From NCBI RefSeq assembly GCF_009914755.1, contig NC_060926.1: a DNA stretch of 64,000 bases; one strand, given 5' to 3'. The position numbers were made by a program, and so were the translations under genes. Numbering within the stretch: the stretch's first letter is position 1; every line of letters begins with the position of its first letter. The DNA comes from the human T2T-CHM13v2.0 reference genome, Homo sapiens. Below the pieces are notes generated by a model that ran no database searches, was not told where the DNA came from, and saw only the letters and a list, made by a program, of their open reading frames with translations. Shown piece by piece: positions 57,820 to 59,269 of the stretch.

Positions 57820-58195
57820 ATATGACTGAAACCTTTTGTTTCATGGATGACAAGACTGGGGCCTGGAGAAGTGAGGTCATTTGCCCACCATCCTGCAGCT
57901 AGAATTAAAACCAAATGCAGTGGTTTAAAGCTCAGTATTCTTTTCACTCCAAATTGGTAGCTGCCTGTAATTTGCTGGCATTGTAGAAACAAAAACATAG
58001 TGAAAATCACCAAAATTATATTTTACATTTATAAAGTGCTTTACAGTTTCCAAAGCATTTTAATAAACACTATCTGACCTCCCTGTGGTGTTATCTCAAG
58101 AAGGTTAATAGGGGAGATAGTATTCCTCTTTAGTATATGAGGAAACAGGGATTCAGAGAAGCTAAGTGACTTGCCCAGAGTTTAGAATTCAAATC
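57820..58195 (-). mobile_element. Two MIR fragments
   Basis: ggagaagtgaggtcatttgccc and atgaggaaacagggattcagagaagctaagtgacttgccca. Confidence 0.7.
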
Positions 58196-58424
58196 CTTCT
58201 TTCTTTTTTCTTTTCTTTTCCTTTTTTTTTTTTTTTTTTTTTTTTGAGACAGGGTCTTGCTCTGTTGCCCAGGCTGGAGTGCAGTGGCAGTGACATGAAC
58301 GTGGCTCACTGCAGCCTCGACCTCCTGGGCTCAAGTGATTCTCCCACCTCAGCCTCCTGAGTAGCTGGGACCACAGGCACATGCCACCATGCTCAGCTAA
58401 TTTTTAAAAAATCTTTTAAAAGTT

Positions 58425-58499
58425 CCCCTGGTGGTCTAGTGGTTAGGATTCGGCACTCTCACCGCCACTGCCCCCGTTCAGTTACCGGTCAGGGAACCA
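58425..58499 (+). pseudogene. tRNA-Glu(CTC) retropseudogene, full length with encoded CCA
   Basis: cCCCTGGTGGTCTAGTGGTTAGGATTCGGCaCTCTCACCGCCaCtGCCCccGTTCagTTaCCGGTCAGGGAA-CCA. By hand this has 9 mismatches in 72 nt versus human tRNA-Glu-CTC as recalled. Anticodon CTC at 58458-58460, CCA at 58497-58499; T-arm and B box are damaged. Confidence 0.93.
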
Positions 58500-58570
58500 A
58501 GAAATGGAGCAGGACGAGCTGCAGACAAAACCCCTCAGACAGCAGATTAAAGAAGGAAGAGGTTTTTTGG
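58500..58570 (-). mobile_element. HERV-E-type (LTR2-like) U5 terminus and pre-PBS spacer
   Basis: Reverse complement reads aaaaaacctcttccttctttaatctgctgtctgaggggttttgtctgcagctcgtcctgctcCA-tttct-TGGTTCCCTGACCGG, i.e. LTR end (CA), spacer, then a tRNA-Glu PBS, as in HERV-E. Confidence 0.8.
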
Positions 58571-58683
58571 GTGCAGCACACCAACATGGCACATGTATAC
58601 ATATGTAACAAGCCGGCACGTTGTGCGCATATACCCTAAAACTTAAAGTATAATAAAAAAAATGAAAAAAAGTAAAAAATTAA
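58568..58683 (+). mobile_element. L1PA (about PA3-PA4-like) extreme 3' end with poly(A)
   Basis: tgggtgcagcacaccaacatggcacatgtatacatatgtaacaa...cacgttgtg...accctaaaacttaaagtataataaaaaa; AATAAA at 58652-58657. Confidence 0.93.
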
Positions 58684-59269
58684 AAAAAATCTTTTTAGAG
58701 CTGGGGTCTCACTACGTTGCCCAGACTTTTCTGAACTCCTGGACTCAAGTGACCCTCCCACCTCAGCCTCCCAAAATGTTGGGATTATAAACATGTGCCA
58801 CCATGAGCAGCCAAATCCTCATTTCTTGATGAAGATTCCTTCTCTGATAACTATCTTCTGATGCTGTGAGAGTGAACTGATATTTCCAAGAAAGGTGTAT
58901 CCCAGAGATTACAAACAGTGACCATCCAAAAAATATTAGAACTGCGCAGGGATCTTTCCAGAGCATTCTAAAAATGAAGCTTACAATAGATTTGATTGGC
59001 TGTGAAGTTGAAATGGGGAGGGAGGTAAACCTTATGCAGGTTGTTATAGGATGTTAATCTCCTGGGACAGAATGGGAATAGGTAAGGTGACAACTTTAAA
59101 ACAAATCAGAGAATTAAGAACATGGTTAAGAAATGATAGATTTTTGTGATCGGGGTTAAAAAGAGAGGAGCCATCTTTGATATAAAATAGGACTTTGTTT
59201 AACATTCTTGGGAAGATACTTCTCAGAATGGTGCATCTCACCCTTCCCATTGGCCAAGAGCGTCTCTTG

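What the first reader, a model, noticed from the sequence alone, without database searches (positions are those of the whole stretch)
58406..58700. Retroviral tRNA-primed minus-strand intermediate (tRNA-Glu + HERV-E U5) captured by LINE-1 as one chimeric insertion
Seen: between two copies of a 17-bp TSD (AAAAAATCTTTTAAAAG at 58406-58422; AAAAAATCTTTTTAGAG at 58684-58700; L1 endonuclease-type site TTTTT/AAAAAA) lie a complete tRNA-Glu(CTC) with CCA, then AGAAA plus about 65 nt antisense to an LTR 3' end, then about 85 nt of L1PA 3' UTR and poly(A). Established: eukaryotic tRNA genes do not encode CCA; HERV-E is primed by tRNA-Glu; a provirus keeps only about 18 nt of PBS, not the whole tRNA; the natural molecule with sequence tRNA-CCA-spacer-antisense U5 is the primer still attached to nascent minus-strand strong-stop DNA. 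Inference: L1 ORF2p began target-primed reverse transcription on its own RNA, then switched to (or was joined with) this RNA-DNA intermediate and copied it to the tRNA 5' end. That would be a fossil of cross-talk between ERV and LINE replication in the primate germ line, analogous to known U6-L1 chimeras but with a different partner. I cannot tell whether this locus has been described as a unit.
Basis: partly seen in the sequence, partly recalled or inferred. Interest (0 to 1): 0.93.

Follow-up and report, generated by a model that had tools for sequence, protein, structure and literature searches.

The report
L1 chimera carrying provirus-derived tRNA–LTR transcript
A single old LINE-1-made insertion inside an Alu joins an L1 tail to a short copy of an endogenous-retrovirus variant that already carried a whole tRNA-Glu next to its LTR, so it is a curiosity of retroelement cross-talk and not a fossil replication intermediate.

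Summary
The anatomy is real. An antisense Alu is split at 58406-58700 by one TSD-flanked, poly(A)-ended insertion: a 72-nt tRNA-Glu(CTC)-like module, CCA, AGAAA, about 63 nt of antisense HERV-E U5 ending in a T-run, then about 100 nt of L1 3' end.

The same locus is listed in a published table of tRNA/LINE-1 chimeras (tRNA-Glu-GAG 1-75, LTR2C 439-501, L1PA5).

The "captured strong-stop DNA" reading fails. At least 9 HERV-E-like proviral loci in this genome carry the same whole-tRNA–CCA–AGAAA–U5 arrangement as ordinary proviral DNA. In that lineage about 600 bp of leader is replaced at a 9-nt match to the tRNA 5' end.

The window's tRNA module shares derived bases with that lineage against all real tRNA-Glu genes seen: position 1 T>C (7 of 7 aligned copies), G45>T (5 of 7), G51>C (4 of 7). 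Its U5 shares lineage variants too. A full strong-stop DNA would also run about 100 nt further, through R.

Best reading (about 0.6): an RNA polymerase III transcript that starts at the provirus-embedded tRNA copy, ends at the first T-run (the antisense of the LTR's AATAAA) and was joined to an L1 3' fragment, as in U6/L1 chimeras. Pol III transcription is inferred, not shown. The junction is unique in the genome, so the chimera never amplified.

The parts
58217..58405 (-). 3' part of the host Alu, with its poly(A) read as a T-run on the + strand; left flank of the insertion
   Evidence: Rfam Metazoa_SRP hit 58244-58397(-); sequence; continuous with 58701-58811 once the insert is removed
58406..58422 (+). 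Target-site duplication, copy 1 (AAAAAATCTTTTAAAAG). The first 12 nt are identical to copy 2. The last 5 nt are ambiguous between TSD and insert.
   Evidence: preceded by TTTTT, giving a TT/AAAA-type L1 endonuclease site
58423..58424 (+). TT leader upstream of tRNA position 1. It equals positions -2 and -1 of the proviral flank (...AAGTT|C...) and is not explained by the TSD, whose copy 2 ends ...TAGAG.
   Evidence: Caveat: an unrelated tRNA-Glu half retrocopy (L083) also has extra T's before position 1.
58425..58499 (+). tRNA-Glu(CTC)-like module (72 nt) plus CCA. It is a copy of the tRNA sequence embedded in a HERV-E variant provirus, not of a cellular tRNA.
   Evidence: 89% identity to real genes. 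It differs from the real gene at 9 of 72 positions; T1>C is shared with 7 of 7, G45>T with 5 of 7 and G51>C with 4 of 7 aligned proviral copies. Published RepeatMasker call: tRNA-Glu-GAG 1-75.
58500..58504 (+). AGAAA spacer, the antisense of the 5 nt between the LTR end and the PBS in HERV-E proviruses
   Evidence: The same CCAAGAAA junction is present in all but one of the 22 canonical proviruses (L021 reads CCATGAAA); the 3 solo LTRs start just after it
58505..58562 (-). HERV-E U5 (LTR2C type), antisense on the + strand
   Evidence: 45 matches; published call LTR2C 439-501 of 501; the R/U5 boundary lies at about 399-435. It carries the lineage variants TGGAGCA and GACAGC, found in 0 of 25 canonical or solo copies.
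58563..58568 (+). T-run (6 T), the antisense of the A-run of the LTR polyadenylation signal. Proposed Pol III terminator and junction to L1; the last T may belong to L1.
   Evidence: the first run of 4 or more T's lies at +139..+144 in the window and starts at +139 in L032, L033 and L034
58569..58662 (+). 3' end of an L1 (L1PA5 in the published RepeatMasker table)
   Evidence: 825 candidates; 40 of 40 scored at 95-100%; L1PA5; hg38 spacing equals window 58568-58669
58663..58683 (+). A-rich tail of the insertion
58684..58700 (+). Target-site duplication, copy 2 (AAAAAATCTTTTTAGAG), continuous with the Alu
58701..58811 (-). 5' part of the host Alu; right flank
   Evidence: Rfam Metazoa_SRP hit 58696-58811(-)

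Best explanation
The proposed history has four steps.

1. An ancestral HERV-E-like provirus acquired a complete antisense copy of its primer tRNA-Glu. The likely route (inferred) is plus-strand strong-stop synthesis reading through the whole primer and then re-annealing at a 9-nt internal match to the tRNA 5' end. This deleted about 600 bp of leader. The variant then multiplied; at least 9 loci remain.

2. On the antisense strand of such a provirus the embedded tRNA copy keeps its internal A and B boxes. RNA polymerase III started a few bases upstream of it. It read through CCA, the AGAAA spacer and U5, and stopped at the first T-run, which is the antisense of the LTR's AATAAA(A)n. The product is a roughly 145-nt RNA ending in U's (inferred).

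3. During target-primed reverse transcription at a TTTTT/AAAAAA site in an Alu in a PARD3B intron, L1 ORF2p copied about 100 nt of an L1PA5 3' end. It then continued on this small RNA up to its 5' end. The join arose either by template switching onto the RNA's U-tail or because the two RNAs had been ligated beforehand. The architecture is that of U6/L1 chimeras.

4. The result is a dead single-copy retrocopy with no expected function.
For: One L1-type event
- TSD, endonuclease-type site, A-tail, and the Alu restored on deletion.
- L1 identity.
- The locus is listed with tRNA-Glu-GAG 1-75, LTR2C 439-501 and L1PA5 and flagged found_by_msa_prediction=1 in the supplement of PMC13174262.

A DNA template exists
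- The 85-nt tRNA probe found 7 other places that span the leader, the whole tRNA, CCA and AGAAA.
- All 7 share an internal proviral leader. Two more were found.
- All 9 abut the leader hits.

Origin of the variant
- In 12 of 12 canonical proviruses the same leader lies about 600 nt from the PBS and ends in a near-copy of the tRNA 5' end (exact TCCCTGGTG in 8 of 12).

Descent of the window's copy from that lineage
- T1>C is shared by 7 of 7, G45>T by 5 of 7 and G51>C by 4 of 7 aligned proviral copies. None of these states occurs in the real genes aligned.
- Among the 48 genomic matches to the 29-nt 5' motif, C at position 1 occurs only in the window and in 8 places that abut the proviral leader.
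- The U5 variant TGGAGCA is in 5 of 9 full-tRNA copies. G in GACAGC is in 7 of 9 (6 read GACAG; L032 reads GATAG). Both are in 0 of 25 canonical or solo copies.
- The tree puts the window inside the full-tRNA group, nearest L033 and L032.

The ends fit Pol III
- The insert starts 2-5 nt upstream of the tRNA module, in sequence equal to the proviral flank.
- It ends in the first run of 4 or more T's, at +139..+144. That run starts at +139 in L032, L033 and L034 and is the first such run in 7 of 8 proviral copies parsed.
- ARAGORN still calls the embedded copy of L033 a tRNA-Glu(CTC).
Against: - No direct evidence of Pol III transcription: no expression or ChIP data are available here.
- The present-day copies nearest the window (L032, L033) carry a G>C change in the A-box region that the window lacks, so neither is the source itself.
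- The B box of the sub-lineage carries G51>C.
- The 5' boundary is ambiguous by up to 5 nt, because AAAAG could be TSD or insert.
- Extra T's also precede position 1 in an unrelated tRNA-Glu half retrocopy (L083), so the TT leader alone is weak evidence.
- ARAGORN recognised only 1 of 7 proviral copies scanned, and Rfam tRNA recognised only the same one (L033), at the threshold.
- Tree support is modest (90/89; no starred fork).
- I could not inspect primate orthologues myself.
Confidence: 0.6

Rival explanations
1. The partner was an antisense RNA of a full-tRNA HERV-E provirus made by another polymerase, for example read-through from a host gene or an antisense promoter. Its ends in the chimera reflect breakage, structure-induced stops or microhomology at the U/A-run, not Pol III initiation and termination.
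For: The evidence for proviral descent is the same as for the best explanation. ORF2p switching could favour a U-run. Most present-day embedded copies no longer score as tRNAs (1 of 7 by ARAGORN).
Against: It needs two coincidences: a 5' end within 5 nt of the tRNA module and a 3' end within the 6-8-nt T-run. A second solitary copy (L062) also has one end beside the same T-run.
Confidence: 0.2
2. One reading: L1 reverse transcriptase copied a cellular tRNA-Glu primer still joined to nascent HERV-E minus-strand strong-stop DNA.
For: CCA, the 5-nt spacer and U5 are in exact PBS register. The 5' end lies at or near the tRNA 5' end. For the 5'-truncated solitary copies L062 and L063 this origin cannot be excluded, because their informative positions are missing or read as in the real tRNA.
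Against: - The same arrangement exists as proviral DNA at 9 or more loci.
- The window's tRNA carries three derived states of that lineage, two of them transversions, plus two flank bases.
- The LTR part covers only LTR2C 439-501. A complete strong-stop DNA would reach the U3/R boundary at about 298-337.
- It requires ORF2p to copy an RNA-DNA hybrid molecule, which the simpler reading does not.
Confidence: 0.05
3. Stepwise origin: an L1 3' fragment and a tRNA-U5 fragment arrived in separate events at the same spot.
For: None found here. I could not inspect orthologous loci.
Against: There is only one TSD pair, and it flanks the whole insert. The tRNA-U5 part has no tail or repeats of its own and abuts L1 directly at the T-run. 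The published comparative pipeline flags the pieces as one insertion.
Confidence: 0.05

Closest known systems
U6/L1 chimeric retrocopies. PMC4476161 was seen in a search listing and PMC6789731 by its abstract in a listing. The original Buzdin papers are recalled, not seen.
   Same: A small RNA ending in U's sits in sense orientation and is fused directly to a 5'-truncated L1 3' end. There is one poly(A), one TSD pair and an L1 endonuclease-type site. The join is by template switching or prior RNA ligation.
   Different: The partner is not a housekeeping snRNA. It is a transcript of a tRNA copy embedded in an endogenous provirus, carrying about 70 nt of antisense LTR as trailer.
tRNA/LINE-1 chimeras of 'Comparative genomics reveals LINE-1 recombination with diverse RNAs' (PMC13174262). 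Passages of the main text and supplement file 2, sheet 7, were read.
   Same: This very locus is one of the rows of the tRNA sheet: hg38 chr2:205354230-205354474, with tRNA-Glu-GAG 1-75, LTR2C 439-501 and L1PA5. The spacing equals window 58425-58669.
   Different: Most listed tRNA chimeras are tRNA halves antisense to the L1. This one is full length, in sense orientation, and the only row with an LTR piece. The main text has 0 hits for LTR2C, tRNA-Glu, 'endogenous retrovirus' or 'primer binding', so its proviral origin is not discussed there.
Okada-Ohshima model of tRNA-SINE genesis from tRNA-primed retroviral strong-stop DNA (J Mol Evol 1993). I saw it only as reference 102; the content is recalled.
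   Same: A tRNA head followed by CCA and U5-like sequence, then a LINE-derived tail. The window's insert has exactly this tripartite layout.
   Different: Here the tRNA-CCA-U5 block came from an integrated provirus and not from a free strong-stop intermediate. The product did not amplify (junction unique).
TRIMp3 elements (Cassandra, Helenus, Ajax): LTR retrotransposons carrying small-RNA-gene-like Pol III promoters (PMC10886601, abstract read)
   Same: An LTR retroelement lineage that carries a tRNA-like sequence with a potential Pol III promoter as part of its own DNA.
   Different: In those elements the tRNA-like sequence lies inside the LTR, and the abstract proposes that they can originate through insertion of a SINE into the LTR. 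Here it lies between the 5' LTR and the leader, antisense, and derives from the replication primer.
Aberrant retroviral DNAs in which plus-strand synthesis reads past the 18-nt PBS into the primer tRNA and re-primes at internal homology (Olsen and Swanstrom 1985; recalled, not seen)
   Same: It would explain the whole-tRNA copy plus the roughly 600-bp leader deletion at a 9-nt match.
   Different: That work concerned defective DNA forms in infected cells. Here the product became a germ-line lineage with at least 9 surviving copies.
L1-made processed pseudogenes of HERVs (Pavlicek et al. 2002; seen only as a reference)
   Same: L1 machinery copying retrovirus-derived RNA.
   Different: Those are sense-strand viral mRNAs running from R to R with poly(A). 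This is a 145-nt antisense piece fused to L1.

Membership tests
L1 3'-chimeric retrocopy (U6/L1 type) | A 5'-truncated L1 3' end with an A-tail at the 3' side | tested here: met
   58568-58683; 40 of 40 scored matches at 95-100%; L1PA5
L1 3'-chimeric retrocopy (U6/L1 type) | A non-L1 RNA copy in the same orientation, fused directly to the L1 5' break with no tail of its own | tested here: met
   The junction GAGG-TTTTTT-GGGTGC lies at 58560-58574
L1 3'-chimeric retrocopy (U6/L1 type) | One TSD pair around the whole insert and a TT/AAAA-type cleavage site | tested here: met
L1 3'-chimeric retrocopy (U6/L1 type) | All parts arrive together in phylogeny | not testable with these tools
   No primate genomes are available here. 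The published table flags found_by_msa_prediction=1; the method is described.
   C at position 1, T45 and C51 are shared with proviral copies and not with real genes. TT precedes position 1.
   This is equally met by the proviral DNA.
   9 proviral loci carry the whole tRNA + CCA + AGAAA + U5
   Only LTR2C 439-501 is present. The U3/R boundary lies at about 298-337 and the R/U5 boundary at about 399-435.
tRNA-type Pol III transcription unit (source locus) | Internal A and B boxes, i.e. a tRNA-like fold | tested here: inconclusive
   ARAGORN calls a tRNA-Glu(CTC) in L033 only (1 of 7 proviral copies scanned). Rfam tRNA scores 29.2 bits for L033 against a cut-off of 29.
tRNA-type Pol III transcription unit (source locus) | A run of 4 or more T's as the first terminator downstream | tested here: met
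   First T-run at +127..+150 in 7 of 8 copies parsed. L061 has an earlier TTTT; L060 was not parsed by the script.
tRNA-type Pol III transcription unit (source locus) | Pol III occupancy or a transcript with these ends | not testable with these tools
   No expression or ChIP data are held
tRNA-derived SINE | tRNA head, unrelated body, and LINE-derived tail with poly(A) | tested here: met
   Layout of 58423-58683
tRNA-derived SINE | Amplified to many copies | tested here: not met
   The 33-nt U5/L1 junction, allowing up to 3 mismatches, occurs once in the genome, and that occurrence is the window

The most novel reading that the evidence does not exclude
The tRNA-Glu copy embedded in this HERV-E lineage was a working Pol III gene in the primate germ line. 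Its tRNA-U5 RNA was mobilised by L1 more than once: the window's copy and perhaps L062 and L063. In the window one event assembled a complete SINE-type unit (Pol III tRNA head, LTR-derived body, L1 tail, poly(A)). That would be a natural, datable example of how a tRNA-SINE can be born from a retrovirus's primer region, close to the Okada-Ohshima idea but passing through an integrated provirus.
Probability: 0.3. Interest if true: 0.6.

Novelty: new member of a known kind. Interest (0 to 1): 0.35.

Why it matters
The locus does not record a retroviral replication intermediate, so the high-interest claim falls away.

What remains is modest but real.
- A published tRNA/L1 chimera gets an explanation: its partner RNA came from a provirus, not from a tRNA gene.
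- A HERV-E lineage that carries a full copy of its primer tRNA is documented. In four full-text searches I found no description of it.
- This lineage is a caution for anyone who takes "tRNA + CCA next to an LTR end" as proof of strong-stop DNA.
- It also shows how a Pol III promoter, an LTR fragment and a LINE tail can be joined in one step into a SINE-like layout.

Tried and rejected
- ARAGORN and Rfam on the window's tRNA module gave no call. The module is too decayed, so identity rests on alignment to real genes.
- Literature on a whole-tRNA HERV-E or Harlequin variant, or on Pol III at HERV-E: four searches and passages of PMC4724089, PMC4379568, PMC5753468 and PMC1693877 gave nothing on it. 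Repbase/Dfam consensus sequences are not held here, so I cannot say whether a library consensus (HERVE_a-int, Harlequin-int) already contains the tRNA copy.
- The TT leader as stand-alone proof of a proviral origin was rejected after L083, an unrelated tRNA-Glu half retrocopy, also showed extra T's before position 1.
- Amplification as a SINE was rejected: the junction is unique.
- L032 or L033 as the actual source copy was rejected: both carry a G>C change at tRNA position 18 that the window lacks.
- The tree of the 150-nt module gave only moderate support. I rely on the shared derived states instead.
One leader hit (C1:19978625) and 8 of the 10 canonical-looking pattern hits were judged from the match table or matched string only.
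Full report
**1. What is in the sequence**

The + strand at 58217-58811 is an Alu in antisense orientation, cut in two. Rfam SRP/Alu hits lie at 58244-58397(-) and 58696-58811(-).

Between the halves lie, in order:
- AAAAAATCTTTTAAAAG (58406-58422)
- TT (58423-58424)
- a 72-nt tRNA-Glu(CTC)-like module (58425-58496)
- CCA (58497-58499)
- AGAAA (58500-58504)
- about 58 nt antisense to an LTR end (58505-58562)
- six T's (58563-58568)
- about 95 nt of L1 3' end
- an A-rich tail reaching 58683
- AAAAAATCTTTTTAGAG (58684-58700)

The two 17-mers agree at 15 of 17 positions, and the first 12 are identical. Removing 58406-58683 gives a sequence that aligns as single HSPs across the junction with all 15 other Alus listed from the window. 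The target site reads TTTTT/AAAAAA.

**2. Identity of the modules**

- ARAGORN and Rfam do not call the decayed tRNA module.
- A genome search with 58420-58504 matches genuine tRNA-Glu-CTC genes at 89% over 71 nt. The alignment shows 9 differences in 72 positions. Real genes have no CCA.
- The 78-nt probe 58495-58572 gave 45 matches at about 88-94% identity.
- Of the 27 distinct other places I read, 22 are proviruses with an 18-nt PBS, 3 are solo LTRs that begin exactly after the AGAAA, and 2 are discussed in section 3.
- The L1 piece is a high-copy repeat: 825 first-look candidates, with 40 of 40 scored at 95-100%.

**3. A published listing**

Supplement file 2, sheet 7, of PMC13174262 (Cell Genomics 2026) lists hg38 chr2:205354230-205354304(+) as tRNA-Glu-GAG 1-75, chr2:205354310-205354372(-) as LTR2C 439-501 of 501, and chr2:205354373-205354474(+) as L1PA5. 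The row is flagged found_by_msa_prediction=1.

The lengths and gaps equal window 58425-58499, 58505-58567 and 58568-58669. I did not map the coordinates between assemblies with any tool.

That pipeline times insertions from a multi-species alignment. The main text has no hit for LTR2C, tRNA-Glu, "endogenous retrovirus" or "primer binding". The locus is therefore catalogued as a unit but not explained.

**4. The key new fact: a proviral lineage with the whole tRNA**

- Two of the U5 hits (C13:40.67 Mb and C2:159.34 Mb) match not only PBS + U5 but the whole tRNA module.
- The tRNA probe found 7 places other than the window that span the bases before the tRNA, the whole tRNA, CCA and AGAAA.
- All 7 continue on the tRNA side into the same internal retroviral sequence, and on the other side into the LTR.
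- Two more copies came from a 29-nt pattern search.
- All 9 directly abut hits of the 150-nt leader probe.

In canonical proviruses the same leader lies about 600 nt further from the PBS: 603, 611 and 615 nt in L027, L012 and L007. In 12 of 12 canonical loci read, it ends in a near-copy of the tRNA-Glu 5' end...AAGTT TCCCTGGTG, before diverging. The 9-mer is exact in 8 of 12 and has 1-2 mismatches in 4.

The variant is therefore a recombinant. The rest of the tRNA replaces about 600 bp of leader, joined at a 9-nt match.

My inference, from recalled work on aberrant retroviral DNA, is that plus-strand strong-stop synthesis read through the whole primer and then re-annealed at the internal match. 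The copies differ by up to about 23% from the window's module and carry two U5 types. The variant therefore spread as a lineage. The three copies in the chr8 6.8-13 Mb region may include segmental duplicates; I did not test this.

**5. The window's insert descends from that lineage, not from a cellular tRNA**

- Of the window's 9 differences from the real gene, T1>C is shared by 7 of 7 aligned proviral copies, G45>T by 5 of 7 and G51>C by 4 of 7. The last two are transversions.
- Among all 48 genomic matches to the 29-nt 5' motif, C at position 1 occurs only in the window and in 8 places that abut the proviral leader. The other 39 have T.
- The two T's before position 1 equal the proviral flank. 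An unrelated tRNA-Glu half retrocopy (L083) shows that extra T's can occur anyway.
- In U5, the window's TGGAGCA and GACAGC are seen in 0 of 25 canonical or solo copies. One further canonical provirus, L069, has TGGAGCA. TGGAGCA is in 5 of 9 full-tRNA copies. G in GACAGC is in 7 of 9 full-tRNA copies (6 read GACAG; L032 reads GATAG).
- The window is 88-89% identical to L032 and L033 over 149-150 columns. In a tree it sits inside the full-tRNA group, with modest support (90/89).
- As a rough estimate, three specific substitutions matching by chance at about 10% divergence is of order 1e-5. This is my inference, not a computed test.

**6. Why not strong-stop DNA**

Besides the points in section 5, a review of HERV-E LTRs places the U3/R boundary at about 298-337 and the polyadenylation signal and R/U5 boundary at about 399-435 (PMC4379568, passages). 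The window holds only LTR2C 439-501, which is U5 alone. A finished minus-strand strong-stop DNA would run about 100 nt further.

**7. Why Pol III (inferred)**

- The non-L1 part begins 2-5 nt before the tRNA copy.
- It ends in the first run of 4 or more T's downstream, at +139..+144. In L032, L033 and L034 that run starts at the same +139.
- It is the first such run in 7 of 8 proviral copies parsed. L061 has a mutational TTTT in the anticodon loop. L060 was not parsed by my script, but its alignment row shows the run.
- This T-run is the antisense of the LTR's AATAAA followed by A's.
- A tRNA-type internal promoter with a downstream T-run is a Pol III unit by textbook definition. ARAGORN still calls L033's copy a tRNA-Glu(CTC).
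- A small RNA ending in U's and fused to a truncated L1 3' end is the U6/L1 architecture. Both template switching and prior RtcB ligation have been proposed for that architecture (PMC13174262 introduction; PMC6789731 abstract). I cannot tell the two mechanisms apart here.

**8. Other solitary copies**

- L063 (C2:11.58 Mb): between 11-nt direct repeats it has the tRNA from about position 8, CCA, a spacer and about 25 nt of U5 ending at an internal A-run.
- L062 (C3:106.88 Mb): the tRNA from about position 17, CCA, AGAAA and U5 up to the same T-run, inside a complex A/T-rich insertion whose orientation I could not settle.
- Both are 5'-truncated, so the diagnostic position 1 is missing. For these two, a strong-stop origin cannot be excluded.

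**9. Outcome**

The 33-nt U5/L1 junction, allowing 3 mismatches, is unique in the genome. The insert has the layout of a tRNA-SINE (tRNA head, body, LINE tail) but never amplified. It lies in a PARD3B intron inside an Alu, and I expect no function.

**10. Limits**

- I had no primate genomes, no Dfam or Repbase, and no expression data.
- L1PA5 and LTR2C are the published RepeatMasker names, not my own classification.

Noticed in passing
L032, L033, L034, L060, L061, L064, L065, L084, L085 (contig places): A HERV-E-like proviral lineage carries a complete antisense copy of its primer tRNA-Glu plus CCA between the 5' LTR and the leader. About 600 bp of leader is missing, and the join lies at a 9-nt match between the tRNA 5' end and the internal sequence. 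I found no description of it in four full-text searches.
   Followed up: partly
L063 about 1495-1605 (G000:C2:11584662-11584734): A solitary retrocopy flanked by 11-nt direct repeats (ATCCTACTCAG). It holds tRNA-Glu from about position 8, CCA, a spacer and about 25 nt of antisense U5, and ends at U5's own A-run with no real poly(A) tail.
   Followed up: partly
L062 about 1400-1600 (G000:C3:106879177-106879242): A 5'-truncated tRNA-Glu + CCA + AGAAA + antisense U5 that ends beside the same T-run as in the window. It is embedded in an A/T-rich composite insertion with a possible AAGGCCTTTTTT repeat. Its orientation and mechanism are unresolved; an inverted (twin-priming-like) copy is possible.
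   Followed up: partly
L010, L011, L018 (G000:C8:10494367-10494590): In one canonical provirus the roughly 75-nt unit 'last 5 nt of PBS + AGAAA + U5 up to the T-run' is present three times in tandem.
   Followed up: no
L085 (G000:C8:7804180-7804430): This full-tRNA provirus copy has an internal duplication of about 40 nt within U5, just before the T-run.
   Followed up: no
L083 about 105-170 (G000:C4:88652417): A tRNA-Glu 5' half (about positions 1-37) with no tail, flanked by imperfect 11-nt repeats (AAAATTAGTAG / AAAATAAGTAG). It is a small tailless tRNA-half retrocopy unrelated to HERV-E.
   Followed up: no
window 58426-58625: According to the hub's annotation, NCBI's soft-masking covers the Alu halves (58191-58425 and 58626-58807) but leaves most of the tRNA-U5-L1 insert unmasked.
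   Followed up: no
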